A DNA stretch of 64,000 nt from a virus. Below the pieces are notes generated by a model that did not search any database, was not told where the DNA came from, and saw nothing but the letters and a program-made list of their open reading frames with translations. Below, piece by piece: positions 13,721 to 39,654 of the stretch (position 1 is its first letter; each line of letters opens with the position of its first letter). A program made the translations under genes and the position numbers. Location: positions 1-64,000 of the IMG/VR virus record IMGVR_UViG_3300032073_000003, one strand, 5' to 3'.

Positions 13721-16693
13721 TTATATGCCGTCATCAAACCATGGGTTAAAATATACATAACCTCCTGTATTAAATTCAGGATACATATTTGGAGGTGATG
13801 CTGGTTGAGAGTTATTTTTTAATGTACTCCATTCATACCTGGCATTCTTAGCAGCTTGTTCTGCTGATAGTCCTTCACCTATCCACTTATCATAAAGTGA
13901 TTCATAAGTAGCAGAATTAGTTGGACTAGGGTTTCTTGAATTAGGTATATGTTCCATCGGCCCACCTCTTCCAGGAAATACTTTATAATCTGGATACATC
14001 TGATTCATAGCATCTGTTTGCCATCTATTAGTAATAGCATTAGTATATTGATTTCTTAAGTTATTTCTCATAGCTAATTTAGAGTTATCATACTGTTGAT
14101 TAGCCATTGTAGTTTGATCATATACTCTTTGATTAGTTGCTTGTCTTAACATGCTTTCCTGATTTCTAACATCAGTTGCTTTAAGTTCAAATTGATTTGC
14201 TATGTTAACATTAGAATTATTATACTTAGCTAATATATCTGCAGCATTTTTAGCAGCTTGTCCTTGAATACCTGATGATCTTGCAGACAATGCTTGAGGT
14301 CCAGCAAACTGTGCCATACCTTGTGTTTGTATATTTGCTTGTTCTGCATTAGCTGCCAGTTCTCTAGTAGGATCTAAAAATGTAGGTCTTGGTTCTTCTA
14401 AATCTACACCAGGTGCCCATGGCATATATTTTTTAATACCCATTAAATCTCCAAATGCACCTGCAGTTTTAATTGTATCTTGCAACCACCACTCTGCATT
14501 TCCACCAGGTACTGATACATTTACATCTTCTTGACAAGGAGGACATTCTCCAGATGGAAGACGTGTTGTAGGTATTTCACTTCCATCTGGACGCATGCAT
14601 AAACATTCTTCTAGTGGTTCTCCTGCTTCTTCTTCTATATCTTCAAAACTTAATCCGTGAATATATTCAATTTGTCCTGCATCTGTATTACCTCTATGTC
14701 CATCAATAGGGGTAATGTTTTTTACACCGGCAACTGCTTCATCTTCAAATCCTTGTGATCTACCATATGGTTTAAACCCTTCTATTGGTGAAAAATTTAA
14801 TAATGCTTGTCTTTCTGTTTCAGTAAAATCATTATCCTCTGAATCAAGTTGTTTCATTAAACTATTCATTCCAAGAAATGCTGCTTGTTCAATTTTTACT
14901 TGATTTTGTACACTTGCATCTGTAGGATCATAGTTTATACCTAAATCCTTAAAAGATTTTTGTAAACTTGTATATCCATTAGCTTTAATTTTATCGTACA
15001 TTGCCTGAATCTCAGAGTCAGATAAATCACGTCCCCTAGTAGTACCTTTAACTACATCATAAAATCCTTTATCATCACCTTCTCCTGATCCCGTACTTTC
15101 ATAATCTCTTAACTTATCTCCATTATTAGTAAACATATAAGAACCAAACACTGGAATCTTTAGACGATCTTTAGCAGTTGTTAATTTAAGATTTCTTTTT
15201 TGTTGATCTAAATGAGCTTTAACAACATCATCTTCTGTTAAACTATTAATAACAGAATCTGTAACCATTGGCCAATATCCCGGTTTTCTTGATTTTTTAT
15301 AATTTTCTTTCTCTCTAAGTTGAACTATAGTTTCCTCAAAAAGTTTCTTTCTTGCTATAGGATCTTGTAAACCTTGTTCAATTGATTGATATGTTGCTGC
15401 AGCTACAGCATTATCATTCCAATCAGTTGCTAAATCAGATCCTTCATATTTGTCAAAGCTAGTAGCACTAACTTTTTGTAAATATCTTTTACCATCATGA
15501 ATAACATATATTTTTCCACCACGACCTACTTTAGCATATGCATTCCTTAATGCTTGTTGAAATTTTTCTGGTGTATCATACTCATCTTTATTAATTTCTA
15601 CAGTACCTCCATCTTGCATTACTGATAATTCATCAGGTTGTTGTGCTGCAGCCATAGATTGTTGTATTAAACTAATTACATCTTGTTCAGGCATACCTAA
15701 CTCAATAAATATTTGTGCTATACTTTCAGGTGGAATTTGATCATATAATAAAGCTTGTACAACTTGTTCTGGAGCAGCACCTTGTTCTAATGCAGATTGC
15801 ACTTGTTGCATAAGCTGCATCATTTGTTGTTGAGCTCCTTCTTGCTCTTGCATTTGTTGTCTATATATATCAGAATAACCACCTTGCTGCATCATAGGTT
15901 GTGGTGCAGATTGAAGTTGTTGAGGTGGTTCCTGCATAGGTTGAGGTTGAGCTACTGGTCTTCCCTCATTCATACCCATAGCCTCATTTAAAAAGTTTTC
16001 ATTACCTCCTTGTTCTTCTTTTTCTTTTTGACTTTCAAGTTGAGATTTTAATTGTGCTAATTCTTTACTAGGTAGTATTTGTTCTTCTGTAATTCCTTTA
16101 GCTTCCATACAAGGTCTTGCTACTACAGGTATACCTTGTGGGAATCCTTTCATAGATTCTTGTTTTAAAGCAAGACATCCTAGCTTAACTACGTAATTTT
16201 TAATCATTAACTCAGCAGTTTTCTTTTCTATTGCATTTGAGTTAGGATCTTCTAGCAACACTCTATACTTTTGTATATCATATTGTTTAGCAAGGTTAGC
16301 AGGAGTATATGATTTTTTACCACACGGTTTACCAAACATAGTTAAGATTTCACAATCTTTTATTTTCATTGATCTTGTATCACTAAAAATAAAAGTATCT
16401 TCAGGAAGATTTAAAGGCACACCTCCAGCATTATGTCTAGGTCCTTTAATAATTTGTGTTTCAGGAAAAAAGTCACCATTAACATCTCCATATACAAGTT
16501 CCCCACCTTCAGCTTCTACATTAGATTCTTCTCTAGGATCGGCAGTTATATATCTACTTTCCTTAAGTTTAGGTTTTCTCATTTCTCTATTGTAGTCTCC
16601 ACCACCCATTGGGGCAATATCATTAACTAAGCTACCATCTACTTGGTATCCTGTTTTAGCTTTGGCTTGTTTTTTAATTCTTACTTTTATCAT
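13721..16693 (-). CDS. ~990-aa putative internal virion (cargo) protein with Q/M-rich linkers and xxGG motifs
   Basis: ORF track start 16732 overlaps the upstream gene. ATG at 16693 (MIKVRIKKQAKAKTG) follows the upstream stop at 16698 and matches the N-termini of neighbouring genes. N-terminal EAEGGEL...KGPRHNAGGVP domain. Confidence 0.7.
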   Translation of the reverse strand: MIKVRIKKQAKAKTGYQVDGSLVNDIAPMGGGDYNREMRKPKLKESRYITADPREESNVEAEGGELVYGDVNGDFFPETQIIKGPRHNAGGVPLNLPEDTFIFSDTRSMKIKDCEILTMFGKPCGKKSYTPANLAKQYDIQKYRVLLEDPNSNAIEKKTAELMIKNYVVKLGCLALKQESMKGFPQGIPVVARPCMEAKGITEEQILPSKELAQLKSQLESQKEKEEQGGNENFLNEAMGMNEGRPVAQPQPMQEPPQQLQSAPQPMMQQGGYSDIYRQQMQEQEGAQQQMMQLMQQVQSALEQGAAPEQVVQALLYDQIPPESIAQIFIELGMPEQDVISLIQQSMAAAQQPDELSVMQDGGTVEINKDEYDTPEKFQQALRNAYAKVGRGGKIYVIHDGKRYLQKVSATSFDKYEGSDLATDWNDNAVAAATYQSIEQGLQDPIARKKLFEETIVQLREKENYKKSRKPGYWPMVTDSVINSLTEDDVVKAHLDQQKRNLKLTTAKDRLKIPVFGSYMFTNNGDKLRDYESTGSGEGDDKGFYDVVKGTTRGRDLSDSEIQAMYDKIKANGYTSLQKSFKDLGINYDPTDASVQNQVKIEQAAFLGMNSLMKQLDSEDNDFTETERQALLNFSPIEGFKPYGRSQGFEDEAVAGVKNITPIDGHRGNTDAGQIEYIHGLSFEDIEEEAGEPLEECLCMRPDGSEIPTTRLPSGECPPCQEDVNVSVPGGNAEWWLQDTIKTAGAFGDLMGIKKYMPWAPGVDLEEPRPTFLDPTRELAANAEQANIQTQGMAQFAGPQALSARSSGIQGQAAKNAADILAKYNNSNVNIANQFELKATDVRNQESMLRQATNQRVYDQTTMANQQYDNSKLAMRNNLRNQYTNAITNRWQTDAMNQMYPDYKVFPGRGGPMEHIPNSRNPSPTNSATYESLYDKWIGEGLSAEQAAKNARYEWSTLKNNSQPASPPNMYPEFNTGGYVYFNPWFDDGI

Positions 16694-16697
16694 TGGT

Positions 16698-19600
16698 TTA
16701 GTATAAGTATTCAACTTGTCCTCCTGATGCAAGGTAATTATTTAATTGGTCTTGAGTCATAAAAACTTCTTGACCTTCATCATAATATGGTGAATTAGTT
16801 CCTCCTTGTTCCATTTGATTATCTGGCATTATCATTCCATTTGGCATCATATGGTATCCAGGAGGTACATTTTCATTTTGCATATATCCTCCATCTTCCA
16901 TGTATCTTCCATATTTAGCCATAGTTGATGCCATTCCATAATTATCCTGACCCATTTGATCATATCTAAACATTCCCAAATTTTGTCCAGTAGTTGAACC
17001 ATAATTACCTCTATTTTGAAAATTAGCACTTGCATAATTATTTTCAGGTGCTACAAGATCTAAAGTATTATTATATTCTCTTTTATTACTACCAGCATTT
17101 TCAAAAATATTTGCAACTCCTCTTGCTCCTGCATTAAATAGATTTACATTAGCTTCATAATCTCTTGGAAATTTTTTCATATTAAAATCTGCAGAACCTT
17201 GACCACCATTTTCATCTGGAAATAATAAATCAGCATTTTCTCCAATATTCCCTGCTATCTCATAAGTAGGGTAAGAATCATTTGGATTATACATATTATC
17301 TTCAACACTAGTTTGAAAAGGATTTATCATAGTATTTTCACCAACACCGAAACCTGTAAATTCACTAACACCACCATTCCTATAAGTAGGAATATATCCT
17401 CCATATTCTTGGTTTTTAATAATTTTTGCTGCTGCCCTATCATCTCTTCTCTCAGCTCTCCTAGTCTGTCTTGCTGCTTGTCTAGCATCTTGAAACCTTT
17501 GTCTATCTTCTGATTTATATGATTTATTTAATTGCTTTTGAGATTTTTTTCCTACTACCATATCTCTCATAGAATCTGTATTATAAGCATAAGCATTTTC
17601 ATAAGGATTTGTCACACCTTCATTACCAATTGCATTAATATCTGCTCCAGCCATTCTATTTGGATCTTCCCAGTAATCTTCTCCAAAATTACCTTCACCT
17701 AAATATTTAGAATATCTTCTATTTTTTCTTCCTTGTCCTATATCATCTTTAACACCATTAACACTATTCATTAAATTTTGATATATTCCCTCATCATATC
17801 TAGTATTTTTAATTACATCTTCAGATAAGTTATTATTTCCTCCACCAAAATAAACTGTTCCTTCTTTAGGTCTTCCTAACCAATTATTTTTAAACTCTAC
17901 TCTACTTACAGGTCCTGCTGTATTACCTGTAAAATTTGACATTTGCATGTATCTATTGTTTCTTCTTCTGTTCCATGGTAGTAATGCTCCTAAAACTCCT
18001 CTTGATGTTCCAGGTCCTTGTATATAGTTAGTATTATATTGTACCATTGGCACACATCTTTGTAAACGTTCATTCCACATTTGCCCATATCCACATTGTT
18101 TATTTACTTGCATTCCATCATCTGCTTGAGGCATATCATATGGTTCATAGTATTCTGATTCCATACCACCTGAGATAAACTTAGTAAGAGGATTTTCAGC
18201 ATCCATATCTGTAAACCCTCCTAATTCCATCATTGCTGGTGCTTGCATTTGTTGTTGCTGCATAGCCATCATTTCTTCTTCAGATGGTCCCATACCTTGA
18301 GGTTGTTGCTGACCTTGAGACATTATTTGCTGCATAACTTGAACTACTTGTTCTTCAGGCATTCCTAACTGAACAAATATCTGAGCTACAGCTTCAGGTT
18401 CTAACCCACCTTGTAATAACTGCATCATTACTTCTTCTGGTTGAGCACCACTTTCAAGAGCTCCTTGTACTTGTCCTATAATTTCTTCCATTTGATTTCC
18501 ATTATTTTGCAATCCTCCTCCTTCTTGAGAATATTGCATTTCAGTAGGATTAGCTAAATCTTCTTGTTTTCCATTAGACATTAATGTTTGCATAATTTCA
18601 GGATTTCCCTTTGCTAAATCATATATGTCACTTGTCGTAGCTTTATTTGAACTATTTTTTAAATTACTAATAAACCCATCTTTTATTTTTTGAACATCAC
18701 CTATATTAGTATCTGTTCTATCTCCTCTACCAAAAGCATTAGAATCATTTGTATTTGCACCACCATTTTTATAAAATGCTAAAAGATTTTTAGTAAATTT
18801 CTTTTTACTAATAGTACCACCTTGTTTTTTTGGTTCCGGTAAAGTATCCCAATCTAAATTATACATATCACTTATTGGAGTAACATTAGGTGTAGAATCA
18901 ATAAAAGGAATATAATTAGAAGGATCTATAATATTTTTTCCATCTCCAATTTGAAGTTCTCTTTTGAAACCAGGTATTATAACATCCTCTTCACTTGGAC
19001 GTGTCATATAATATCCTAAACCACCAGCAATTAAACCTGCTCCAATATTAAAATTCCTACCTTTTCTACGAAAGTAATCAGTATAGTTTTTAATATCTTC
19101 TGCTGTATTTACATCATCTAATGGCATTCCACTTTTTTCCTTAGCACCATAATTATAAATATCTTGACTTACATCTATAATATTTTTACCTCTAGTTCTA
19201 ATTGGATTATATCCAAACATTTGAGGAAGCCACTGACCAGTATAAAGACTTTCTCCTACCCTACCTATTTTATTTCCTGTTGATATTTCAGCAAATGTTT
19301 TTGGTGGTGTAGCTGTAAATTCTTTACGGCTTATTAAACTTTTAAGTGGATTTCTATTTAGAGGTAAAAATTTAACATCACCTCTAGTACTTCCCATTAT
19401 ACTTTTATATAATGAAGGTACTAAAGGTCTAGTAACTTCAAACATTGTATTAGTACCATTTTCTATTAAATTTAAATTTTCATCATAAACATTAAATGCT
19501 TTTGTTTCTTCATTAGGTTCATAATAAAATCTATTTCTAAAAGTTGTTTTAGAAGCATTACTAGGAATTCCAAAATAAGGACCCTGATCTCCAGGTTTAT

Positions 19601-20873
19601 ATGTATATGAAATATCAAAAAACTTAAGTCCCGCATCATCTTCACCTAAACTAATTTTAGAATTACCTGGATAAACACCACCTATTGTTTCTCGACCTAC
19701 TGGTATTACCTCTTCTAAAAGAAAAGATGATCTTCCTTCAGTATTACCTTTAACTAAAATATCTTGTATAGCTTTTGAAGGCATTGTTAACCTATCTACA
19801 CTTAAGTCATCTGTAATTTTATTTTTACTAAATGCTGATGAAGCATCAATAACTTTTTCTTTATTGTTTAAAATACTTTGTAGTTCATTAACATTTTGAG
19901 TAAAATAAGATTCTAACTTAGGATCTTTTACTAGCCCTTTACCTTTCCAAGATGATCTAAAAGGTGGACGTGGAATTTTACTTAAACCATATCCTACTGC
20001 AGTATTTATAGGTAATAATTTACCAAAAGCAGATGCTCCTTGCATTTGAGGAACTTTATTATACCAATCATAACCTTTTTTAATACCTGTAGTAATATCT
20101 TTAATAAATTTACCATCTTTAGCTTTAGGTAGTTCTTGTGACATTTCTCCTTCGTTTAACCAATTTTGATTTTCCCAACCATTACTTACAGGACTATAAT
20201 CAGGAAGATAATCACTTATCATACTTGATTGTGGATTTACAAATTGAACACCAGCTTGTTGCTGAACTAAATCTTCTATAGAAAAAGGTTTTTGATTACT
20301 ATTATTAGATTGATTTAAATTTGGATCTTGTTGTGCATATCCTCCTTCATTAAAATAACCACCGTATTTAAAAGCTTGTTGCTGCATTTGTTGTTCATCA
20401 AAACTATCTTCTGTAGCATAATCACTAATATGAGAATTGTCTTCTTCAGATTCAGACATCATAAGCTGTTCTTCTTCTTGTTGTTCAGCCATATCTTCAT
20501 CATTAGATCCTGTTGAATCTGACTGTTCTGAAGTTTCTCCCTGTTGTTGTTCTTCTCCAACTGGTTCAGGATTTATATATCCTTCTTCCATAAGTTGTTT
20601 AATTGCAGATTGTATGACCAACTGAGACATATTTCCGTCAGCTCCATAGTTATTAATTAATTCATAATATACTATATCAGCAGGAGTATCTGCTATTAAA
20701 CTGTTATATGCACTAGTATACATTTGCTGAAACATTTGCTGGTCTTGACCTGAGTTACCTACAGACATTCCTTTTTGTGCTTTTGTTAAAAACTGTTTTG
20801 TTTTATTAAGATAACCTGGAGTTTCTCCTTCTTTTGCTTTTCTTATCCTTACTGTTTTTTTCATAAAATACAT
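16698..20873 (-). CDS. 1391-aa putative cargo protein, low-complexity, many xxGG motifs and one ELPKAKDG-delimited module
   Basis: ORF track; alternative start 20864 (MKKTVRIRK). Motifs KYGG, KQGG, QEGG, MELGG, MEDGG, MEQGG. C-terminal QEVFMTQDQLNNYLASGGQVEYLY tag. Confidence 0.75.
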   Translation of the reverse strand: MYFMKKTVRIRKAKEGETPGYLNKTKQFLTKAQKGMSVGNSGQDQQMFQQMYTSAYNSLIADTPADIVYYELINNYGADGNMSQLVIQSAIKQLMEEGYINPEPVGEEQQQGETSEQSDSTGSNDEDMAEQQEEEQLMMSESEEDNSHISDYATEDSFDEQQMQQQAFKYGGYFNEGGYAQQDPNLNQSNNSNQKPFSIEDLVQQQAGVQFVNPQSSMISDYLPDYSPVSNGWENQNWLNEGEMSQELPKAKDGKFIKDITTGIKKGYDWYNKVPQMQGASAFGKLLPINTAVGYGLSKIPRPPFRSSWKGKGLVKDPKLESYFTQNVNELQSILNNKEKVIDASSAFSKNKITDDLSVDRLTMPSKAIQDILVKGNTEGRSSFLLEEVIPVGRETIGGVYPGNSKISLGEDDAGLKFFDISYTYKPGDQGPYFGIPSNASKTTFRNRFYYEPNEETKAFNVYDENLNLIENGTNTMFEVTRPLVPSLYKSIMGSTRGDVKFLPLNRNPLKSLISRKEFTATPPKTFAEISTGNKIGRVGESLYTGQWLPQMFGYNPIRTRGKNIIDVSQDIYNYGAKEKSGMPLDDVNTAEDIKNYTDYFRRKGRNFNIGAGLIAGGLGYYMTRPSEEDVIIPGFKRELQIGDGKNIIDPSNYIPFIDSTPNVTPISDMYNLDWDTLPEPKKQGGTISKKKFTKNLLAFYKNGGANTNDSNAFGRGDRTDTNIGDVQKIKDGFISNLKNSSNKATTSDIYDLAKGNPEIMQTLMSNGKQEDLANPTEMQYSQEGGGLQNNGNQMEEIIGQVQGALESGAQPEEVMMQLLQGGLEPEAVAQIFVQLGMPEEQVVQVMQQIMSQGQQQPQGMGPSEEEMMAMQQQQMQAPAMMELGGFTDMDAENPLTKFISGGMESEYYEPYDMPQADDGMQVNKQCGYGQMWNERLQRCVPMVQYNTNYIQGPGTSRGVLGALLPWNRRRNNRYMQMSNFTGNTAGPVSRVEFKNNWLGRPKEGTVYFGGGNNNLSEDVIKNTRYDEGIYQNLMNSVNGVKDDIGQGRKNRRYSKYLGEGNFGEDYWEDPNRMAGADINAIGNEGVTNPYENAYAYNTDSMRDMVVGKKSQKQLNKSYKSEDRQRFQDARQAARQTRRAERRDDRAAAKIIKNQEYGGYIPTYRNGGVSEFTGFGVGENTMINPFQTSVEDNMYNPNDSYPTYEIAGNIGENADLLFPDENGGQGSADFNMKKFPRDYEANVNLFNAGARGVANIFENAGSNKREYNNTLDLVAPENNYASANFQNRGNYGSTTGQNLGMFRYDQMGQDNYGMASTMAKYGRYMEDGGYMQNENVPPGYHMMPNGMIMPDNQMEQGGTNSPYYDEGQEVFMTQDQLNNYLASGGQVEYLY

Positions 20874-20879
20874 TGTATA

Positions 20880-20894
20880 TATTAATATACTAAA
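20880..20894 (-). promoter_or_regulatory. Conserved intergenic motif TTTAGTATATT (putative phage late promoter core)
   Basis: Same core at 49878-49892, 54289-54303 and 62014-62024, with variants at 39532-39542 and 43177-43187; always a short distance upstream of a start codon. Confidence 0.6.
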
Positions 20895-20923
20895 TTTAAA
20901 TTTAATCTATAAACTTATATAGT

Positions 20924-23900: not shown

Positions 23901-25417
23901 TTTAATAAATCTTCATATTCTTTTTCAAGAGATTCTTTTCTAGGTGCATAAAAATCAAAAACACTTTTACCATCTTTAGTAACATTACTATTTAATATGC
24001 TAATTTTATCTTCTAAAGATAAGGCTGGATTACTATAAGCTTGTTCTATTAATTCTCTTTCTTGTCTTGGAATGTCCATATTATCCCTCATATAACTATT
24101 TTCTGCTATATCTTCTCCTGTTAACTTTTGTAAATCTTCAGCAAATTTTCTTTCTACATTTTCATTTCTTACTCCTTCAATACCAGGTAAATTACTATAA
24201 ATTCTATTATAATCCATATTAGAAAATGCATCATAACCTACATTTTGAGCATTTTCTTGTCCTTCACGATATGTTTTTTCACCAAGCTTTCTTTGGTTAA
24301 TAGCTGCATCTAATGCCATTCCATCTGACATTTCATTCTCTTTAGATGGTGTGTAAATTCCTTCTAATACTCTATTTAATTTTTCTCTTCTTATTTTCTT
24401 TTCTGTAGGAGTCTTACCTTGATCTACCCACCAATCTTGATATTTCTTATCTGCATCAACAGCAATTTTCCATATTTCTTTACCATCTATATTTTCAGTT
24501 CCACTAACTCTTCCAAAATCAAAATCTTTTTCTCTATCCCATTTTACTCTATCTTCTTCTATTTTATCATAACTACTTAATATTTCATTTGTATTATAAT
24601 CATAGTCATCTTCAATAGCTTTTGATACTAACTCCTTAAAATGTGATTGCATGTTTTCAGTAACACCATCTTTTGGTGATAACTCATTAATCACTTGTTC
24701 AGGAGTTTTATTCTCTTCTAGTGCAGTACTATATATTTTATTCAGCATTGAATTATCATAGGATTCTTCTCTATAATCTATGAGTTCACCCATTTGTTCT
24801 CGTACCTGTTTACCATCTAATCCCCACTTATTTACAAAATCTCGATCTTTAAAACCATTATTAATTATTTTATGTTGCAATATTTCATATGGCCAAATTG
24901 AATATGCACCATTATTATTTTTTTGTATATAATAGTCACCTTCATTTTTTAGTTCATCAACTTGTTCTTGTGTTAATGTCTTATTTTCAAAAAGAGGTTT
25001 AATTTTATCTGATTTTTTAGACTTAGTAAAATCAGTATAATAATTATTTCTACGTTCTTCTTCTTGTTGTAGCCATTCTTGATATGCTTGTTGTTCTATG
25101 TCATTTAATCTAAGATTTGTCAACCTTCTCATCCTCCCATAAGTATCAAATTTGTCAAAGTTTGGATACGGATTTTCATCATTATCCACTCCAAATATAT
25201 TATTACGAAATGCATCAGCAAAGTTATACTCTAGATTACCACCTTTATAATCAGTCTTTCCATAGTTTGGATCTAAGTCTTTTTGTTTAGATCCAAACTT
25301 CTGCCTCTTCATTTTTAATTTCTTCTGCATTTTTAATCTATTTCTATCATCTATAGACTCACCTGTTTGGGCTTTAGGTAATAATTGAGGGATGCTTGTA
25401 ATTTTATATTTTTTCAT
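20924..25417 (-). CDS. 1497-aa putative cargo polyprotein with GGELPEAQxG-delimited modules
   Basis: LLPKAQTG at N-terminus, KFGGELPEAQWG and QEGGELPEAQRG internally, C-terminal KDGGMVVNLSQKEIDQYAKEGWIIEDV. Confidence 0.8.
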   Translation of the reverse strand: MKKYKITSIPQLLPKAQTGESIDDRNRLKMQKKLKMKRQKFGSKQKDLDPNYGKTDYKGGNLEYNFADAFRNNIFGVDNDENPYPNFDKFDTYGRMRRLTNLRLNDIEQQAYQEWLQQEEERRNNYYTDFTKSKKSDKIKPLFENKTLTQEQVDELKNEGDYYIQKNNNGAYSIWPYEILQHKIINNGFKDRDFVNKWGLDGKQVREQMGELIDYREESYDNSMLNKIYSTALEENKTPEQVINELSPKDGVTENMQSHFKELVSKAIEDDYDYNTNEILSSYDKIEEDRVKWDREKDFDFGRVSGTENIDGKEIWKIAVDADKKYQDWWVDQGKTPTEKKIRREKLNRVLEGIYTPSKENEMSDGMALDAAINQRKLGEKTYREGQENAQNVGYDAFSNMDYNRIYSNLPGIEGVRNENVERKFAEDLQKLTGEDIAENSYMRDNMDIPRQERELIEQAYSNPALSLEDKISILNSNVTKDGKSVFDFYAPRKESLEKEYEDLLKQKEVAKKQTGIIEKGKSLEDFVDKKIAKNLETLPVTYMDKINNLYNLRQHRYDLDRNTLKAGPAGEEIGFGTKAWDVITNPGQAIGYAMDLRPNATMWKPGQTQSFNELQEQARNSGFENEQGEIIMNEGLRDKDLSGNAPAIMASLYNKLNPLHWGDELSRDFSLDRTSELGMDAAAAYATLYSGGQGGLGKYGKNWLANEWKYAAPFYAYESFKPDGHLAKGDYLSASFAAPIVGKYVKNALPIAKGVGQSLKHGKLATINPKINYSFTAANPSTGKGFFYGNPASLEKGFSKSYFPKTRDKIFDKTGLGIDFRKKIDPLGYKFGGELPEAQWGKFIKYLGKSKNYLKNFIKGKPIPEFGGRRYNELSDIEKKALVDKAMLKLNPKDELNISQIEKKPRTIKIADDLKWTKRNQMSDIGGFEFGPAQETIQNLINQKGIKNLDELDKMLAKTFNLEKGPLLTNSLTKFKGHGIDDFDFKPMSPGAIEMQKAKLLAADVKGPKFARSIDFPSPMNDEHKRLFHQYNSAPSGEMRDLIRKGMIKKFGSDKVLKYAVNNLEENRRLGPQGYYGKFKPLTRNEIGANLLGVLDDSSPILKYNYRLNELVNQYNRYIKMGIDPNKPGMLSLQDKIKNFPRKKHHHFDKWDKFSGKDINLRDPLIMNQEGGELPEAQRGLSSLAKLIKTGGKNYSKFNLGKDVYKYTPNFTKNILRDINTSTLGTANAIAKTIAPVMINPLTFGLSVEEFGPFTGSPLNFIPFYGKTLPSSKNINPGVAYRKFGDNLDYVKNTGIISPAHGGKFRMGKKQVQGEGNWAEMGNINEKYPGVFAASFDTNVPGTNINITNGRELNRNGVLVREGNNFTGTVPYNSIMDPGVKIHRRLPFSNKYVDVNMDKLRGDKFDPATMGGNLQSLLERYGYAAGIAGGLGLAGINIPQEYLDEYVNNPIKENYIKLKGLFDKPIKKEKDGGMVVNLSQKEIDQYAKEGWIIEDV
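21881..22921. repeat. Identical 24-bp direct repeat (TTGAGCTTCTGGTAATTCACCACC) at 21881-21904 and 22898-22921
   Basis: Both copies read directly; each encodes GGELPEAQ and they flank a 1017-bp module. Confidence 0.9.
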
Positions 25418-25419
25418 AA

Positions 25420-28400
25420 CTATATTTCTTCAAATGTATAACCTTGTGCTTTTAATCTTTTCATAGTAGCTTCATCTACTATATCTCCTAACTCTACACT
25501 ACCACCTTCTTTCCATCTTCCATCTCCCCATTTTTCCATATTTTTGTCTTTTACACCAGTTCCTGGAACTAACATTTCTCTAATTTCTCTTACTAATTCT
25601 TTTGATCCTAATTTATTATTAGTCACGTCAGGTAAAAAGACATCTGGATTAATGTTAAAAACACTATTTCTTTCTCCGGGTTTTCCTATATAAGATAAGT
25701 CTACTAAGCCAAGTTTATCTCCAACTGATCCAATATTATCTAGACCCATATAATCAAGTCCTACACCTAAGTCATTAAGTTCTTTAACAGTATTATATAT
25801 AACATCTGAATCTACTGATAGACCACTAGAATAATCTAATTTAGGCATAAATTGTACAAATCTTTTACTATTTTGCAAATTATCTTCTCCAACCCTAAAA
25901 GCTTCTGTAGGAAAGGCTGCTTCAGCATAAGAACTATTAAATTTTTTACCGGCATTTATAAGATTTTGCATATCATTCTCATCTCCAAAAAACTTTCCAA
26001 ATTTTATATATTCTTTATCATTTAATAAATTATTAAATAGTCTCCCTTGACCACCCGCTAATTGATCTCCATGTTTACCTCGTGCTTGTGTAATAGGTAA
26101 CCCTGAATAATCTAATCTAAATTTACTATATTCATCTTGAATATTAAATAACTTTTTTTGCACCTCATTTTGTGCTTTTACAAGTTCATCAATTTTAGCT
26201 TCTTTAGCAGATTCACTTAATCTTTTATCATATGTTACTCTATCTATTGCCTTATCAAATTGTTTTACTTTATTTGCAAATTTAGCATGATCATATCTAC
26301 TAGTTAATTGTTTTCCAAAATCTCTTAATCCAGATATTTCAGCAGCTCCTCTTCCTAACGAATAATAATTGTTATTCCGCATCATGTTCCAAGCAGCTTC
26401 TGTACGTAATAATTCTTCAGGAGGTGTGAATAAAAATTTTTTACTAGTAGTTATAGAATTAGGTGGGTTTAAATATTTCATCCATTTACCATATTTTGCT
26501 TTAGGTAAATCTCCTCCTTGTTCATATTTACCTTTCCATCCTGTATCAAAATCTAACTTATTTTGTTTTATATATTTGACAAAGTCTAGTTTTTGTTGAG
26601 GATTTAAATTAACCAAATCAGCAAAAGGATAAGTTTCATCAATATCAAACATTTTACTACCTTTAAGACCTACCACAGAACCATCAGATTTGGACGCACT
26701 AAAATGTAAAGGCATATCATAATTGTTACTAGGCATATAGTCATGTACATAATAACCATCCTTTACTCCACCATCAGTTTTCCAAGTCTTATTTGGTTTA
26801 TAATATTTACTGAACCAATCATTATAACTTCCTTCACTGAAGTCTCTTGGTGACTTCATTTTAAATTGATAATTACCATACCGACCGGACATATCTGGAT
26901 AATGTGTTGCAAATAAAGCATCAACATTATGCATAAGATGCATACCCGATCTATAACCATATGTATCCATTGGAACATGAGCAACTTGATATTTTGCTAT
27001 TGATAAAGGATCATTAAAATCAACACCTGCATTTTTCATGTTTTCAAATTCTGAAATACTATTAGGATAATTAGGTACTGACATATCAAATTTATGTCTT
27101 GTATGTTCCTGCATACCTTTACCATCATGAGGAACTTTACCAGTTACAGCTCTATATCTAGTTGCATTGTGATCTAATGCTAATTTAGTTAATTCTTCAG
27201 TTCTTTTAGTTGAACGTGCAGCATAATTTAAATCATTAAAATTCTCACCAATAAGTCCTTCTTTTTGTAGGTTTTTAATAAATTGTCTTCTTCGTAAGAA
27301 TCCTTGTGCTTCTTTAATTTGCTCTTTAGTTATTTTTTTTATATAGTCTGTAGATTTTGGAATTATACTATTTTCAAGTTTTAATGCATAAGGTAATACG
27401 CTGTTACCTGTAACTATTTTATTATAAGTATCAACTGGTTTTATATATTTACTTAAAATTTTACTTCCCTGTTTTATAACCCTACCATCCCATGCCTTTG
27501 GTAATTCTCCTCCTAATTTCTTTTCTTCCAATGTACTTCCCGCAGCTCCTGCTGCTCCTAATCCTAAACCTACTGTAGGTAATCTATTAAGAAGCCATGA
27601 TAAGTTTTGATACATTTCAGGAGATTCTTCCATAAAATCTAATATTCTAGTATTGCTTAAATAGGATTTACTATTATTAGATTTTACTACCCCCATAGGA
27701 TTTCTTTTAAAAAACGTTGAAGCTACTTGTAATTTTTCTGGAGTAATGTTTTCATACCTATGTTTAATTAATCCTTTTAATAACATAGCTTCTCTAAGTT
27801 CATTTAAATAAGCAGAAGGTTCTTTACCTGATTTTTTAAAATAGTCATATGCCTTTTGTTGATTTTCATTAAGTTCTTTTTTTGGTCTAATCATTTTAAG
27901 AGCATCTCTATCAATTTGAAGTTTCCTACCTCTTTGTAAACCATGACCTCTTATTTCATGAGCAAGTATAGGTGTATTAAATGGAGAACTATAATCTACC
28001 CCCATTCTAATAAAACCAGGTAAAGCTTTTTCACCAAGTTGAGTCTTATTTAAATTAAAAAAATCATAATTATTAATATCACCAGCCCATGCATCCAAAT
28101 ATATATTATTAGGGTTTGTATAAGAAGCGTTAGAATATAAATATTTACTATTAAAAAAATCTTTTTCTGGTAATCTATTTTGGTCTAAAAACTTACTTGC
28201 TACAGAAGCACTATTCCTTACATTACCCATTAACTCTAATTCCTGCAATCTTGCTTTATAATTTAATTCAGCTTGTTTGTCAATAAAATTTTTAGGATAT
28301 CCAATATGTTCTAAGTGTTCAGATTCTTGTTTAAGCAATCTTTTTTTTCCTTCAGGACTTTTTAATTCATATAACATGTCACCTACATAATTCTGAATAG

Positions 28401-31400
28401 GTTCTATTCCTGTAGCTAAATGTTTAAGCATCTCTTGTTGTAATAGCGGATCTTTTAAAACATTTGTTTTGAAAAAAGGATGGGAATTTACTACTACATC
28501 ATCAAATTTAGTAGCAAATGGTAATGTTTTTTTAAGAGCTTTAGATATGGTACCTACTTGTGCTTTAGGTAGTTGTCCTCCTTTTTTAAGATCAAAATGA
28601 AGAGGATTAGTTTGTGTTAATATAAAAGGTTTGCCAAATTTGTTAAGTAACCTAGGAGCTAAATCTTTAAAATAAGAATCATCTTGAGCTCCTATTTCAC
28701 TTTTTCCTTCTATCCATTTATCGACATAATCTTTTGGATGAAATCCCCAAACATCTCTTGTTGTAAAATCAAACTTTTTAGGAGTTATTCTTCTAACAAA
28801 TGTCATATGACCCCCTATGTCATCTATAGGTTCAATTGGATTTCCCCATAAACCAAAGTTAGGAAGATATCCATCTTTAAACGAACTTTCAAATGGAAGT
28901 ATTTCTCCAAATTCATCAAATAGTGTATTATATGCTCCTATAAGTCCATCAGGATTTTTTGACTTAACAGCTTGTTCTATAATTTCATCTTTCCATCTAG
29001 TAAACTCATCATATGTTCTATGTGATTTTATTTGAGGATCTGCTACATCCATCCGACCAAAAAGTTTTTTACCACTAAGAGGTTCTTTATTAGCGAAATT
29101 AGAAAGTAATTCATAAGACTTTAAAGGACCGTGATAATCAGTATATTTTTTTAATGCATCTTTACTTTCTAGTTCTGATAACCAACGTGATTCTTTAAAC
29201 TTTGAATCATCTCCAAAGTAAAGATCTACTAAACTTCTATCTTGATGACCTGGAAACCCTGTTTCTTTTCCAGAATAAGTTTCTAATAATTTCTTTTTTG
29301 AATCAAGATCTTCTAAAAATTTAGACACATTATAATGTTCATTTCCTGAACTTAAACCCATAGCATGCTTTGCATACTTCTTCATAATCTCTGGAGCAAG
29401 AATAGCTGAAATATCTATACCCTTATCTATAATACCTCTTGACAATCCTTGTATAATCTTATTACTACTACCTGCTCCTGTTATTAAAGGTTTAGCAAGA
29501 CTAATTAAACCCAATTTAGCTTTAGGCAATTCTTCTACTACATATCCACCCTTTACATATTTATCTATTTCTTCAGGAGTTAATTCAAGTTGAAAACCAC
29601 CTTCTTGTTTATCTTGTAAATGTTCTGGCAATTGATCTTTCCAAGAACCTCTTCCAAATGCTAATGCAGCTTCTTTGTCTTCACCAAAATCATATACCTC
29701 TCCTCTTTTTAAAGCTTCTTGATATATTGGCCACCATCCATTTTCTCCAGATACTTCCTTCCAGTTTTCTTGATCATCAGCATAAGGTTTAGAATCTTGA
29801 AATAAAGTTGGAAATGCTACCCAACCTCTACCATCAACGTATTCTGCAGCCATTAAATGAGATGATACACTTGTAGGAAACTGAAGTCCTGAAGGAGTCC
29901 ATGCTTTATAATCATAATTATCTCTTACACCTCTTCTTTGTTTTACACTATGACCATCTTGAGCTTTAGGAACATCTTTACGTGTAAAATCAGAAGATCT
30001 TTCCATATTTGGAATTTTACTATCATCATAATTAGATAATAATTCTTCTCCAGGTTGTATGTCTCTTATAGCTATTAAAGATATGTGATCTCCATTATCT
30101 ACTTCAGTAACATTAGGTTCTTCGCTATGATTATATCCACCAATCTGTTTAGAAGGAAATGGTGCTTGATACATTTCACCATTTTTTTCAAATTCTTTTC
30201 TTATATGAGATACTCCAATTGATTGTCCTTTAGATATAGGTTCTTTAGAAAACACACCGGTTCCATGAATTGGAGATTCTTTTTCTTCTACTTGTATATA
30301 TACAGGAGTATCTACACCATGTTCTTTTGAATTAACAAAAGTACCTTCAATATTATCTTCTCTTTGAGCTTTAGGTAACTCTTCTTCTACTATATACCCT
30401 CCTTTTACATATTCTTCTATCTCAGCATCAGTAAGTTCTTTTGTTTCATATTCTCCTCCAAATTTATTTTCAGGTAAACCTAGACCAGCTACCCCTAATA
30501 AAGGAATTAAAGCTTTATAAATATTAGGATTAGTCATATCAAACATTCCGTTATTTCCTCTTAGAGATTTAGCATAATTACCAGGCACTTGATTTGCAAT
30601 AGTCACATCTCCAAAAATACCATCTAATACATCATCTATCTGAATGTTTGATAAACCTTGTTTTTCCATATAGGTTGCTAAATCATCAGTTGAAGTAAAC
30701 TCACCTAATTTATCACGAACTGTTTGCAACTCTTTTTCAGTAGTATAGTTGTTACTCTTTATGTTTTGCAATTCATCTTCTAAATCTGCTACACGTTTTT
30801 GATATCTTTCTATTGCCTTTTTTGAATTTGATTTCTTAGCTCTAGTTAGCATATCTTTATAAGCTTTAATATTATACTCCATTTTAGATATTACATCACC
30901 AGGTCCTGTTAAAGGTATTTCTGTCCAATGTTGTTTATTTGCATTAATCTTTAAAGAATTTGAAGATTTAGGTATAGCTAATTCATATAATCCATTAAAA
31001 CGAAGATCTTCAGGTGTATTAGAATTAAAGTAAAAATCATCTGTATAATTTAAAGACCCGTTATAATTCCTTGCTAACTCTTTGTTTCCTGTAAATACTC
31101 CAGTATAACCCTTATCTTTTTTATCTATCAATGTAGGGTTATATTTAGTAGTACCTCTATAAACTGTACTATAACCTTCAGGAAAAGCTTTCTTAAAGTC
31201 TTTACTATTAACTTGCACAAATTGCTCTGGTAATCCAGGAGAACCATCTGGTAATGTAAACGGTGATCCGTCTGCATTTTTCATCCATGTACTATTAGTT
31301 TTAGCAAATTTTTCTATATCTGCATACTCATCCATTAAAGCTTTATTCTTAGGAATATCTTTATTCCAATTACTCCAGTTTATTTCTGATTTAAACTTAT

Positions 31401-31695
31401 TAGATTTATTTATAATTTTACTAGGTACTGTAAAATTTGGTTTAAGATATTTTAAAAATTTACTTAAACCCGTTTGCGCTTTAGGTAGCTCTCCTCCTTG
31501 TTTTAACATAGGATATTCATCCACATAAGATGCTCCTGGAAAAGTATAGCTTTGACCAGGTTGCATCAATACAGGTTCTCCTACATCAGGTACTGCCCAT
31601 ACAGGATAGTCAACTCCTTCCATAGTAATTTGATTACCAGGAATTCTAGTGTTCTTACCGGGGTGAGCCCATTGCCCTCTAGGATCTTCTATCAT
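25420..31695 (-). CDS. 2091-aa modular (polyvalent) cargo polyprotein: ART-PolyVal-like, SET, two unknown, zincin-like, ART-like and kinase-like modules
   Basis: Seven PKA(Q/K/W) delimiters. SET motifs IHGTGVF / YNHSEEPN / GEELLSNY. ART-like VYRGT...KSLRGNNGMFDMTNPNI. Zincin-like LAHEIRGH...EPSAY. Kinase-like AGGQGRLF / LDYMGLDN / LVDL. Confidence 0.8.
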   Translation of the reverse strand: MIEDPRGQWAHPGKNTRIPGNQITMEGVDYPVWAVPDVGEPVLMQPGQSYTFPGASYVDEYPMLKQGGELPKAQTGLSKFLKYLKPNFTVPSKIINKSNKFKSEINWSNWNKDIPKNKALMDEYADIEKFAKTNSTWMKNADGSPFTLPDGSPGLPEQFVQVNSKDFKKAFPEGYSTVYRGTTKYNPTLIDKKDKGYTGVFTGNKELARNYNGSLNYTDDFYFNSNTPEDLRFNGLYELAIPKSSNSLKINANKQHWTEIPLTGPGDVISKMEYNIKAYKDMLTRAKKSNSKKAIERYQKRVADLEDELQNIKSNNYTTEKELQTVRDKLGEFTSTDDLATYMEKQGLSNIQIDDVLDGIFGDVTIANQVPGNYAKSLRGNNGMFDMTNPNIYKALIPLLGVAGLGLPENKFGGEYETKELTDAEIEEYVKGGYIVEEELPKAQREDNIEGTFVNSKEHGVDTPVYIQVEEKESPIHGTGVFSKEPISKGQSIGVSHIRKEFEKNGEMYQAPFPSKQIGGYNHSEEPNVTEVDNGDHISLIAIRDIQPGEELLSNYDDSKIPNMERSSDFTRKDVPKAQDGHSVKQRRGVRDNYDYKAWTPSGLQFPTSVSSHLMAAEYVDGRGWVAFPTLFQDSKPYADDQENWKEVSGENGWWPIYQEALKRGEVYDFGEDKEAALAFGRGSWKDQLPEHLQDKQEGGFQLELTPEEIDKYVKGGYVVEELPKAKLGLISLAKPLITGAGSSNKIIQGLSRGIIDKGIDISAILAPEIMKKYAKHAMGLSSGNEHYNVSKFLEDLDSKKKLLETYSGKETGFPGHQDRSLVDLYFGDDSKFKESRWLSELESKDALKKYTDYHGPLKSYELLSNFANKEPLSGKKLFGRMDVADPQIKSHRTYDEFTRWKDEIIEQAVKSKNPDGLIGAYNTLFDEFGEILPFESSFKDGYLPNFGLWGNPIEPIDDIGGHMTFVRRITPKKFDFTTRDVWGFHPKDYVDKWIEGKSEIGAQDDSYFKDLAPRLLNKFGKPFILTQTNPLHFDLKKGGQLPKAQVGTISKALKKTLPFATKFDDVVVNSHPFFKTNVLKDPLLQQEMLKHLATGIEPIQNYVGDMLYELKSPEGKKRLLKQESEHLEHIGYPKNFIDKQAELNYKARLQELELMGNVRNSASVASKFLDQNRLPEKDFFNSKYLYSNASYTNPNNIYLDAWAGDINNYDFFNLNKTQLGEKALPGFIRMGVDYSSPFNTPILAHEIRGHGLQRGRKLQIDRDALKMIRPKKELNENQQKAYDYFKKSGKEPSAYLNELREAMLLKGLIKHRYENITPEKLQVASTFFKRNPMGVVKSNNSKSYLSNTRILDFMEESPEMYQNLSWLLNRLPTVGLGLGAAGAAGSTLEEKKLGGELPKAWDGRVIKQGSKILSKYIKPVDTYNKIVTGNSVLPYALKLENSIIPKSTDYIKKITKEQIKEAQGFLRRRQFIKNLQKEGLIGENFNDLNYAARSTKRTEELTKLALDHNATRYRAVTGKVPHDGKGMQEHTRHKFDMSVPNYPNSISEFENMKNAGVDFNDPLSIAKYQVAHVPMDTYGYRSGMHLMHNVDALFATHYPDMSGRYGNYQFKMKSPRDFSEGSYNDWFSKYYKPNKTWKTDGGVKDGYYVHDYMPSNNYDMPLHFSASKSDGSVVGLKGSKMFDIDETYPFADLVNLNPQQKLDFVKYIKQNKLDFDTGWKGKYEQGGDLPKAKYGKWMKYLNPPNSITTSKKFLFTPPEELLRTEAAWNMMRNNNYYSLGRGAAEISGLRDFGKQLTSRYDHAKFANKVKQFDKAIDRVTYDKRLSESAKEAKIDELVKAQNEVQKKLFNIQDEYSKFRLDYSGLPITQARGKHGDQLAGGQGRLFNNLLNDKEYIKFGKFFGDENDMQNLINAGKKFNSSYAEAAFPTEAFRVGEDNLQNSKRFVQFMPKLDYSSGLSVDSDVIYNTVKELNDLGVGLDYMGLDNIGSVGDKLGLVDLSYIGKPGERNSVFNINPDVFLPDVTNNKLGSKELVREIREMLVPGTGVKDKNMEKWGDGRWKEGGSVELGDIVDEATMKRLKAQGYTFEEI

Positions 31696-38142: not shown

Positions 38143-38279
38143 TATTTTTTCTTTTTTCTTTTAGGTACACAATTGTTAACCATTTTTACCTTTCCACCTT
38201 TAGTTTTTTTACCACTAGGAGATTTTTTTTTACCTTTAGCTACATAGCCTTTCCAACAAGTATTTTTTTTAACTGCCAT
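38142..38279 (-). CDS. 45-aa basic micro-protein of the phage CWKGY...NCVP motif type
   Basis: Not in the ORF track. Translates MAVKKNTCWKGYVAKGKKKSPSGKKTKGGKVKMVNNCVPKRKKKK; TAATG overlaps with both neighbours. Confidence 0.8.
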   Translation of the reverse strand: MAVKKNTCWKGYVAKGKKKSPSGKKTKGGKVKMVNNCVPKRKKKK

Positions 38280-39528: not shown

Positions 39529-39583
39529 AATAATATAGTAAAAATTTGTGACTTAAACAAATATACAAAAAAACAAAATACCT

Positions 39584-39614
39584 AAAAAAACAAAACCCCC
39601 ACTAGTGTGAGGGT
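39584..39614 (-). terminator. Rho-independent terminator
   Basis: Minus strand ACCCTCAC-ACTA-GTGGGGGT hairpin followed by TTTGTTTTTTT, downstream of the 602-aa gene. Confidence 0.75.
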
Positions 39615-39654
39615 CTCGTCTGTCTGTCACAGAAACCAACAAACCTGTAACATA

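What the first reader, a model, noticed from the sequence alone, without database searches (positions are those of the whole stretch)
13721..31695. Candidate new system: virion cargo polyproteins built from tagged, swappable effector cassettes (xxGG-ELPKAQxG grammar)
Seen: four adjacent cargo genes share one peptide syntax. The delimiter (K/Q/L)xGG-(E/Q/D)LP(K/E)A(Q/K/W)xG or a close variant occurs 7 times in the 2091-aa gene (near 31478, 30368, 29963, 29519, 28562, 27494, 26498), 3 times in the 1497-aa gene (25371, 22901, 21884) and once in the 1391-aa gene (20121). In most cases it is followed by a short basic amphipathic helix (LSKFLKYL, KFIKYLGK, LSSLAKLIK, KWMKYL), then an unrelated domain, often closed by a Gly-rich hydrophobic helix (LIPLLGVAGLGL, VGLGLGAAGAAG, AAGIAGGLGLAGI). 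Established: crAss-like phages package and eject giant cargo proteins, and viral polyprotein cleavage after Gly-Gly is known (ASFV pS273R, adenovirus protease (M/L/I)xGG). Inference: the delimiters are cleavage and/or capsid-loading signals, and the phage injects a shuffled cocktail of enzymes.
Basis: partly seen in the sequence, partly recalled or inferred. Interest (0 to 1): 0.92.

Follow-up and report, generated by a model that had tools for sequence, protein, structure and literature searches.

The report
Junction tag on phage cargo polyproteins
Three giant proteins that this uncultured crAss-like phage probably packs into its particle are strings of exchangeable modules joined by one conserved short peptide (Gly-Gly-x-LPKAQ-x-Gly), which I found in no searched paper; whether it is a docking tag or a cutting site is still open.

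Summary
The motif [GG][E/Q/D]LP[K/E]A[Q/K/W]xG occurs 11 times in three adjacent genes (7, 3, 1) against 0.02-0.03 expected. The fourth gene has only a degenerate N-terminal copy. A profile of the motif finds about 80 giant proteins (2-6 copies each) in a library of 1.84 billion; the motif is phage-specific. A relative with 93-96% DNA identity differs from the 2091-aa gene only by whole cassettes, and 4 of 5 breakpoints lie in or next to the motif's codons. One cassette is 72-78% identical in phages whose muzzle protein is 38% identical. So "swappable cassettes with a delimiter" is supported. New here: the motif is half of a two-tag grammar. Cargo proteins ending in a C-terminal tag (...GYxVEE[ILV]) are always followed by a gene starting M-basic-strand-LPKAQxG (14 junctions, including the cultured cyanophage Lbo-JY46), and fused junctions are exact concatenations. 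Cleavage and capsid loading are not shown: no protease was found, and the invariant residues lie downstream of GG. Only the SET domain is confirmed as an enzyme. This scan already reported the same tag in two other genomes (e1-5348088, e1-5949403). It is a new variant of known polyvalent/crAss cargo proteins.

The parts
31692..37148 (-). Muzzle protein gene (1818 aa), anchor for the cargo block
   Evidence: Pfam PF25731 crAss_MUZ, E 4.7e-22; 89% identical in L110
25420..31695 (-). Gene F, a 2091-aa polyvalent cargo protein with 7 delimiters and 8 modules
20924..25417 (-). Gene E, 1497 aa, with an N-terminal tag and 2 internal delimiters
   Evidence: P0020 is 80% identical over aa 1-1169, third module replaced
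16698..20873 (-). Gene D, 1391 aa, with a degenerate N-terminal tag, one internal delimiter and a C-terminal tag
13721..16693 (-). Gene C (about 990 aa from ATG 16693), counterpart by position and N-terminus of crAss001 C1/gp45; degenerate N-terminal tag only
   Evidence: orthologues in L016, L017, L009, L111, L112
31504..31695 (-). F aa 1-64: small beta-rich N-terminal domain that ends just before the first delimiter
   Evidence: AF2 pLDDT 76-85 for aa 1-60, below 50 from aa 65; recurs at N- or C-termini of more than 25 other giant proteins
31468..31497 (-). Delimiter 1, F aa 67-76, GGELPKAQTG
   Evidence: breakpoint with L110 at F nt 223
30358..30387 (-). Delimiter 2, F aa 437-446, EEELPKAQRE, fused directly to a C-tag
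   Evidence: L110 carries a 1.5-kb insertion right after it
30379..30459 (-). Internal C-terminal-type tag, F aa 413-439 (GGEYETKELTDAEIEEYVKGGYIVEEE)
   Evidence: the same residues form the free C-terminus of P0053, P0078 and P0083
30028..30264 (-). SET domain, F aa 478-556, inside module 3
   Evidence: Pfam PF00856, E 2.6e-9, 37.9 bits against a cut-off of 22.4
29953..29982 (-). Delimiter 3, F aa 572-581, RKDVPKAQDG
29509..29538 (-). Delimiter 4, F aa 720-729, VEELPKAKLG, fused to the C-tag at aa 699-722 (29530-29601)
28552..28581 (-). Delimiter 5, F aa 1039-1048, GGQLPKAQVG
27484..27513 (-). Delimiter 6, F aa 1395-1404, GGELPKAWDG
   Evidence: crossover point with L110
26518..27471 (-). Module 7 (F aa 1409-1726): present here, absent from the 93-96% identical relative L110
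   Evidence: 52-53% identical copies at other positions in L016 and L017
26488..26517 (-). Delimiter 7, F aa 1727-1736, GGDLPKAKYG
   Evidence: the L110 junction is the hybrid LGG|DLPKAKYG
25423..25506 (-). C-terminal tag of F (GGSVELGDIVDEATMKRLKAQGYTFEEI)
25361..25390 (-). N-terminal tag of E (aa 10-19 of MKKYKITSIPQLLPKAQTG)
22892..22921 (-). Delimiter, E aa 833-842, GGELPEAQWG
   Evidence: shares 24 identical nt with the next copy
21875..21904 (-). Delimiter, E aa 1172-1181, GGELPEAQRG
20927..21001 (-). C-terminal tag of E (GGMVVNLSQKEIDQYAKEGWIIEDV)
20769..20798 (-). Degenerate N-terminal tag of D (FLTKAQKG, after MKKTVRIRKAKEG)
20112..20141 (-). Delimiter, D aa 245-254, SQELPKAKDG
16701..16763 (-). 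C-terminal tag of D (FMTQDQLNNYLASGGQVEYLY)
16649..16693 (-). Degenerate N-terminal tag of C (MIKVRIKKQAKAKTG)

Best explanation
F, E and D are accessory 'polyvalent' virion cargo proteins inserted between the muzzle gene and the conserved cargo genes. They are built from independently folding cassettes.

Shown:
- Each cassette border carries a glycine hinge ([K/F/Y][K/Q/R]xGG) followed by the peptide x-LPKAQ-x-G.
- The same peptide sits 8-27 residues from the N-terminus of stand-alone cargo proteins.
- A second tag (GG-x-[LM][ST]xxE[IL]xx[YL]xxxG[YW]x[IV]E[ED][ILV]) sits at their C-termini. The C-tag of one gene is always followed by the N-tag of the next gene.
- In fused proteins the junction is the exact concatenation C-tag+LPKAQxG, or the short form GG-x-LPKAQxG.
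- Cassettes are gained, lost and exchanged by recombination inside the tag's codons.

Inferred: the tag is a position-independent recognition peptide displayed between glycine hinges. I think it most likely docks each cassette, or each protein end, to a conserved virion component or to the neighbouring cargo protein. That would govern incorporation and the order of ejection, as short segments of crAss001 cargo C1 dock on portal, tail rings and muzzle. Obligatory cleavage is not required. Because every cassette travels with its tag, any new domain is at once addressable.
For: Motif enrichment: 11 observed against 0.03 expected.

Distribution: the profile search gave 86 proteins at E<=1e-3, mostly 1000-3300 aa with 2-6 copies. 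A cellular-genome scan was at chance level (83 hits against about 70 expected, my estimate from the pattern's degeneracy); the only real hits lie on one 120-kb contig of phage-like size and composition (GC 0.33).

Logo of 180 internal copies: L89 P K94 A Q95 x G, with GG 76% at -3/-2 and flanks below 0.6 bit.

Close relative L110: muzzle 89%, E 85%, shared F DNA 93-96% identical. It has 3 cassette differences, and breakpoints at F nt 223, 1336/1337, 4203 and 5178 all lie in or next to motifs. Module 7 was lost or gained through 'GGAGGAGAxTTACC' microhomology.

Cassette transfer: F module 4 is 78% and 72% identical, and E module 2 60% identical, inside the F-like genes of phages whose muzzle is 38% identical. 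Module 4 also exists as a complete stand-alone 134-aa gene.

Homology ends are 5-fold enriched at motifs.

Gene-boundary rule: 14 junctions in 10 phages, including cultured Leptolyngbya phage Lbo-JY46 (...ELGYDFEVV-COOH followed by MKIRIIGLPKAQIG).

P0053, P0078 and P0083 end ...GYIVEEE-COOH, the residues that precede LPKAQ at F aa 440.

Tag-like units occur at N-termini, internally and at C-termini (...VKIKSLPKNWKTK-COOH).

AF2: the folded N-terminal domain ends at aa 64, three residues before the first delimiter.

Precedent: short cargo segments dock in the crAss001 tail and portal (PMC10172136).
Against: No receptor is identified and nothing here shows binding. A single tag should be enough to load a fused protein, so keeping 7 tags in one protein needs another reason (avidity, ordering, cleavage, or hitch-hiking with cassettes). 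Some lineages weaken or lose delimiters at the same border (LPTAQ, LPMAQ and IPTAQ in L111; YQDGG-PKVKQRRG in L112). The exact C-terminus+LPKAQ concatenation fits cleavage just as well. Packaging of F, E and D in virions rests on gene position only.
Confidence: 0.45

Rival explanations
1. The tags are processing sites. A phage (or host) protease cuts the polyproteins at or next to GG-x-LPKAQxG, before or after ejection, and releases single effectors whose ends equal those of the stand-alone proteins. The N-terminal leaders and C-tags may be propeptides that also target the capsid, as in T4 CTS/gp21 or the phiKZ and SPN3US ejection proteins.
For: Fused junctions are exact concatenations of a natural C-terminus (...GGYIVEEE) and LPKAQ. 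N-terminal copies follow a short conserved basic leader, as with a propeptide. GG precedes 76% of copies. Autoproteolytic processing of polyvalent proteins has been proposed (PMC5512222). Prohead-protease processing of ejection proteins is known in giant phages (PMC5694885 and PMC7411985, listed).
Against: No protease domain was found in any giant protein or structural gene by Pfam or PHROGs. The residue before Leu is not fixed (S 31%, E 29%, D 11%, Q 9%). The seven near-invariant positions lie on the prime side of a GG|x cut, which is unusual for a protease site. 24% of copies lack GG. Tag-like units at extreme C-termini would yield useless 15-aa peptides. Delimiters can decay without replacement.
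Confidence: 0.27
2. The C-tag of one cargo protein binds the N-tag of the next, like docking domains of modular synthases. This chains F-E-D-C head to tail so that they leave the tail in gene order. Fused junctions are the covalent version of the same link.
For: The C-tag to N-tag adjacency holds at all 14 gene junctions examined, across phages whose muzzle proteins are 24-38% identical to the window's. The tags have complementary charge: an acidic strand ...IVEEE against a basic strand KYKITS / KVKIK. Bayfield et al. expect ejection order to depend on interactions between cargo proteins.
Against: Fused junctions lack the N-terminal basic strand, so they are not a simple covalent copy of the proposed pair. 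The short GG-x-LPKAQ junctions have no C-tag at all. Several other C-terminal tag types exist.
Confidence: 0.13
3. The motif has no present protein function. It is a flexible linker or a fossil of gene fusions, kept because its nearly fixed codons serve as recombination joints.
For: Breakpoints between close relatives lie inside the motif's codons. There is a 24-nt identical repeat in E. Some lineages have lost delimiters.
Against: About 4 bits per position are kept at five positions in 180 copies from proteins clustered at 50% identity or less, while flanks are near random. Synonymous codons vary freely, so selection acts on the peptide and not on the DNA. A linker needs no invariant L-P-K-A-Q.
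Confidence: 0.1

Closest known systems
Polyvalent proteins of phages and conjugative elements (Iyer, Burroughs, Anand, de Souza, Aravind 2017, PMC5512222)
   Same: Giant phage proteins that string together many unrelated domains, are highly mosaic between relatives, are thought to enter the host with the DNA, and for which processing has been suggested. The nearest named clusters for two modules are Kinase-PolyVal and LPD23.
   Different: A text search of that paper found no 'linker' and no delimiter, and its passages on processing name no junction motif. Here the borders carry a fixed N-tag/C-tag grammar that also marks gene ends. Pfam sees none of the PolyVal families here.
Cargo proteins C1 (gp45) and C2 (gp46) of Bacteroides phage crAss001 (Bayfield et al. 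2023, PMC10172136)
   Same: Genes directly after the muzzle gene. Short cargo segments dock on portal, tail rings and muzzle. The gp45 N-terminus MAKKKIKRRGKMPP resembles the basic N-terminus of gene C and its orthologues.
   Different: crAss001 has no F/E/D-like genes between muzzle and C1, and no LPKAQ or C-tag in gp45-gp50. There is no detectable sequence similarity.
T4 capsid targeting sequence with gp21 protease; prohead-protease-processed ejection proteins of phiKZ and SPN3US (own knowledge; PMC9026906 and PMC5694885 listed)
   Same: A short N-terminal peptide addresses internal or ejected proteins to the head. It could combine targeting and cleavage.
   Different: Those sites are LxE| or (S/A/G)xE| and need a gp21-type protease. 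Here the residue before Leu is variable, no such protease was found, and the tag is also internal and multiple.
Encapsulin cargo-loading peptides (own knowledge, not tested here)
   Same: A short conserved peptide behind a flexible Gly-rich linker addresses unrelated enzymes to the inside of an HK97-fold shell.
   Different: Unrelated sequence. Binding to the capsid protein is not shown here.
GG|X polyprotein processing by adenovirus protease or ASFV pS273R
   Same: A Gly-Gly pair lies upstream of the junction.
   Different: No CE-clan protease was detected. The conserved residues are after GG, not before it, and 24% of copies lack GG.

Membership tests
Polyvalent proteins (Iyer et al. 2017) | Many unrelated domains in one phage-encoded polypeptide, with mosaic architecture between relatives | tested here: met
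   8, 4 and 2 segments with unrelated homologues; cassette differences at 89-94% background identity
Polyvalent proteins (Iyer et al. 2017) | Domains from the characteristic pool (MPTase, ART-PolyVal, Kinase-PolyVal, LPD families) | tested here: inconclusive
   Pfam finds only SET. Atlas feature search puts Kinase-PolyVal at 0.87 and LPD23 at 0.82, which are leads only.
Polyvalent proteins (Iyer et al. 2017) | Delivered into the host together with the DNA | not testable with these tools
   Only gene position after the muzzle gene supports it
Crassvirales cargo proteins (crAss001 gp45/gp46 type) | Encoded directly downstream of the muzzle gene in the virion module | tested here: met
Crassvirales cargo proteins (crAss001 gp45/gp46 type) | Sequence or profile similarity to gp45/gp46 | tested here: inconclusive
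   No Pfam hit for F, E, D or C. No PDB sequence hit for C. Only the basic N-terminus of C resembles gp45.
Crassvirales cargo proteins (crAss001 gp45/gp46 type) | Detected in purified virions | not testable with these tools
   Uncultured phage (IMG/VR record)
T4-type CTS plus prohead protease | Short N-terminal targeting peptide on internal proteins | tested here: inconclusive
   N-terminal copies at aa 8-27 on 14 proteins have the right form; targeting is untested
T4-type CTS plus prohead protease | Cleavage consensus with Glu at P1 (LxE| or S/A/G-x-E|) | tested here: not met
   The residue before Leu is S 31%, E 29%, D 11%, Q 9%
T4-type CTS plus prohead protease | gp21/assemblin-type protease gene in the head module | tested here: inconclusive
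   None found by Pfam or PHROGs in the structural genes scanned; a divergent one cannot be excluded
GG|X viral polyprotein processing (adenain, pS273R) | Specificity residues at P4-P1 ending in GG, with a CE-clan cysteine protease encoded | tested here: inconclusive
   GG is present in 76% of copies, but the invariant residues lie after it. No protease domain was found.

The most novel reading that the evidence does not exclude
GG-x-LPKAQxG together with the C-terminal tag is a dedicated addressing-and-processing code of a crAss-like phage clade. An as yet unrecognised phage factor would read the tag to load any tagged domain into the head and then cut it free, so the phage can plug new effectors into its injected arsenal by a single recombination at the tag.
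Probability: 0.2. Interest if true: 0.85.

Novelty: new variant of a known kind. Interest (0 to 1): 0.62.

Why it matters
How podoviruses choose, order and deliver megadaltons of internal proteins is poorly understood. For crassviruses only a few docked cargo segments have been seen. A conserved, position-independent tag that travels with every cassette would give a direct handle on that question through mutagenesis, tag-reporter loading and cryo-EM. It would also explain how injected arsenals diversify so quickly: the breakpoints lie in the tag's codons. And it could serve as a tool for loading foreign proteins into phage heads. The same tags occur in the cultured Leptolyngbya phage Lbo-JY46, so the idea can be tested at the bench now.

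Tried and rejected
- Literature: no relevant paper contains 'LPKAQ'. No paper links Crassvirales with polyvalent proteins. No paper mentions Lbo-JY46.
- AF2 of F aa 430-770 (alignment A4) gave mean pLDDT 33, which is unusable. In F aa 1-470 (A3) only aa 1-64 are confident. A first alignment (A2) was misaligned and was dropped.
- Fold searches with the F 1-470 model: BFVD returned only uncharacterised homologues of the N-terminal domain. The wide VIA search returned only generic helical hairpins, Z 7.2 or less.
- Complex prediction of the F C-tag with the E N-tag: no verdict (score 0.18, mark 0.32). I do not use it either way.
- The search for related loci with E found nothing.
- tblastn of C and B against cultured phages: no match.
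- PDB sequence search of C and of two head-module proteins: nothing.
- Cellulophaga phage phi4:1, Flavobacterium phage FPSV-S29 and crAss001 lack the motif in their cargo regions.
- Rejected readings: internal repeat protein (flanks are unrelated and codons differ); a cellular sorting signal (the cellular-genome scan is at chance); a P1-Glu protease site.
- Weak within-protein 'dialects' at positions -4 and -1 (p about 0.001) could reflect a co-evolving reader or simply paralogy. This is not decisive.
Full report
**Context.** The window is the first 64 kb of a complete 119,466-bp virus record with direct terminal repeats. GC is about 0.30, and all genes in the region lie on the minus strand. 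The gene at 31692-37148 is a crassvirus muzzle protein (PF25731, E 4.7e-22). A ring-2 protein and a major capsid protein lie upstream. Downstream follow F (2091 aa), E (1497), D (1391), C (1003), B (1057), A (2466) and three further giant genes that run over the record's ends. In crAss001 the genes after the muzzle are cargo C1 and C2 and the virion RNA-polymerase proteins, all found in virions (PMC10172136). The nearest named phages by muzzle similarity infect Flavobacterium, Cellulophaga and Leptolyngbya.

**Observation.** The motif is present at all 11 places named: F aa 70, 440, 575, 723, 1042, 1398 and 1730; E aa 13, 836 and 1175; D aa 248. The expected count in the seven giant proteins is 0.02-0.03. 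Codons differ between copies. Gene C has only a degenerate N-terminal version, and D has a second degenerate N-terminal one. A, B, the muzzle and the other giant proteins have none.

**Breadth.**
- A degenerate DNA pattern for GGELPKAQ hit 15 IMG/VR contigs. On 13 of them the match lies in frame in an ORF that carries the LPKAQxG motif, mostly giant ORFs with further copies; these include N-terminal ones.
- In 596 Gb of cellular genomes the same pattern hit at chance level: 83 hits against about 70 expected (my estimate from the pattern's degeneracy). The only convincing hits lie on one 120-kb contig with GC 0.33, which is phage-like in size and composition.
- A 36-column profile of 39 copies (A1) searched against 1.84 billion representatives gave 86 proteins at E<=1e-3. 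Most are 1000-3300 aa with 2-6 copies; about seven are false hits on the basic stretch alone.
- The logo from 180 internal copies is [K/F/Y][K/Q/R]x-G-G-[S/E/D/Q]-L-P-K-A-Q-x-G. Flanks are nearly random and there is only a weak K/L bias after the motif. The regex fixes P, A and G, so the logo is informative mainly for L, K and Q.
- Median spacing between copies is 332 aa.
- crAss001, Cellulophaga phi4:1 and Flavobacterium FPSV-S29 lack the motif.
- No searched paper describes it.
- This scan had already noted the same tag in two other genomes, with the same open question.

**Delimiters are cassette borders.** The metagenome contig L110 is a close relative: muzzle 89%, E 85%, shared F segments 89-94% identical in protein and 93-96% in DNA. 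F differs from it by three whole cassettes.
- F aa 83-403 stands against a 70-aa segment in L110.
- L110 has an extra 513 aa inserted right after LPKAQ at F aa 445.
- F module 7 (aa 1409-1726) is missing in L110.

Breakpoints at F nt 223, 1336/1337, 4203 and 5178 lie in or next to motif codons. The L110 junction LGG|DLPKAKYG is a hybrid of F delimiters 6 and 7, joined through the shared GGAGGAGAxTTACC.

P0020 is 80% identical to E aa 1-1169 and then carries a different third module. In L111 and L112 the muzzle is 38% identical, yet F module 4 is 78% and 72% identical. E module 2 is 60% identical and sits inside L111's F-like gene. Module 4 also occurs as a complete stand-alone 134-aa gene (P0094) on a 69.6-kb contig; P0096 (124 aa) looks like a second one. 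Across 82 motif proteins, 18.6% of internal homology ends fall within 10 aa of a motif, against 3.5% at random. AF2 places the end of the confident N-terminal domain at aa 64, just before delimiter 1.

**A two-tag grammar.** F, E and D end in a related tag: GG-x-[LM][ST]xxE[IL]xx[YL]xxxG[YW]x[IVF]E[ED][ILV]-COOH. The genes that follow start with M, a basic strand ((K/R)(V/Y)(K/R)I...) and LPKAQxG or a degenerate form. This adjacency holds at 14 gene junctions in the window, L110, L013, L016, L017, L111, L112, L009, L099 and the cultured Leptolyngbya phage Lbo-JY46. Inside F, at aa 440 and 723, the C-tag is fused directly to LPKAQ. The residues before it (GGYIVEEE) are the very C-terminus of the stand-alone proteins P0053, P0078 and P0083. 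After a module's 'KxGG' there comes either the C-tag and a stop, or x-LPKAQxG and the next module (E aa 1171-1476 against P0028 607-884). Related units also occur at extreme C-termini (GG-x-VKRVKIKSLPKNWKTK-COOH) and in longer internal forms (GGDISIPDLRRVKIHSLPKAQ).

**Mechanism.** What is shown is the grammar and the recombination at it. What the tag does is inference. I favour a non-cleaved recognition or docking peptide (0.45), for four reasons.
- The conserved part is a 7-residue core between glycines.
- It is independent of position (N-terminal, internal, C-terminal variants).
- It is confined to the variable accessory cargo.
- crAss001 already shows short cargo segments docked on portal, rings and muzzle.

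Processing (0.27) fits the exact concatenations and the N-terminal leaders. It lacks a protease and a protease-like specificity pattern. Head-to-tail docking of C-tag to N-tag (0.13) fits the adjacency rule. A passive linker or recombination joint (0.10) does not explain invariant LPKAQ with free codon choice. Lineage variants (LPTAQ, LPMAQ, a lost delimiter) and weak within-protein dialects show that the tag can drift.

**Module functions.** SET is confirmed. The last F module has kinase families, including Kinase-PolyVal, as its nearest named clusters at 0.87-0.88, which is a lead only. Module 6 has LPD23 at 0.82. No Pfam support exists for ART-PolyVal or a zincin. Other giant proteins of the same genome carry NADAR and LysM.

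**Verdict.** This is a real, widespread junction and terminus tag that I found in no searched paper. It sits on polyvalent cargo proteins of a crAss-like clade, and its function is open. It is a new variant of a known kind, with interest about 0.6.

Noticed in passing
L113 (Leptolyngbya phage Lbo-JY46, PP438436.1) 37867-41357: A cultured cyanophage with a crAss-type muzzle has the same gene-boundary grammar. Its 674-aa protein ends ...DLSPEEVAKLIELGYDFEVV and the next gene starts MKIRIIGLPKAQIG. It is a possible bench model.
   Followed up: partly
window 29596-29955 (F aa 581-700); P0094, P0096; L111, L112: Module 4 (RRGVRxNxDGSxSSHLM...GWVxFPxLFQ...AFGRGSWKDQLP) is a highly mobile cassette of unknown function. 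It is 72-78% identical in phages whose muzzle is 38% identical, and it also occurs as a complete stand-alone 134-aa gene (P0094; P0096, 124 aa, looks the same).
   Followed up: partly
window 31504-31695 (F aa 1-64): A small beta-rich domain (AF2 pLDDT about 80) recurs at the N-terminus or the extreme C-terminus of more than 25 other giant proteins, for example at the C-terminal end of the F-like gene in L017. It may be an anchor domain.
   Followed up: partly
G000:C1:91520-92200 (+), outside the window: A 226-aa protein among the replication genes, with an acidic tail like that of a single-strand DNA-binding protein, carries WLPKAQGG. This is the only copy outside the cargo block. About 0.001 such copies are expected in the proteome (my estimate from residue frequencies).
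   Followed up: no
L109 (G000:C1:104238-119127, minus strand): Two further giant proteins of the cargo block carry a NADAR domain (2488-aa protein, aa 2141-2259, E 1e-14) and a LysM domain (2473-aa protein, aa 2149-2188).
   Followed up: no
window 15065-15406 (C aa 443-556): A weak OprF membrane-domain match (E 0.003, below the Pfam cut-off).
   Followed up: no
window 16693-16732: The listed TTG start of gene C overlaps gene D. The real start is probably ATG at 16693 (MIKVRIKK...), 4 nt after D's stop, as in the orthologues.
   Followed up: yes
window 21881-21904 and 22898-22921: The two LPEAQ delimiters of E share 24 identical nucleotides (GGTGGTGAATTACCAGAAGCTCAA). Given codon usage the chance is about 1%, which suggests recent duplication or conversion.
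   Followed up: partly
L114 (crAss001) gp45 and gp46 N-termini: gp45 starts MAKKKIKRRGKMPP and gp46 starts MANFSFVSGAKFRPFSYQ. These resemble the N-termini of gene C (MIKVRIKK...) and gene B (MATYLQGVTDFIPDYQPF...), so C and B are probably the C1 and C2 counterparts.
   Followed up: partly
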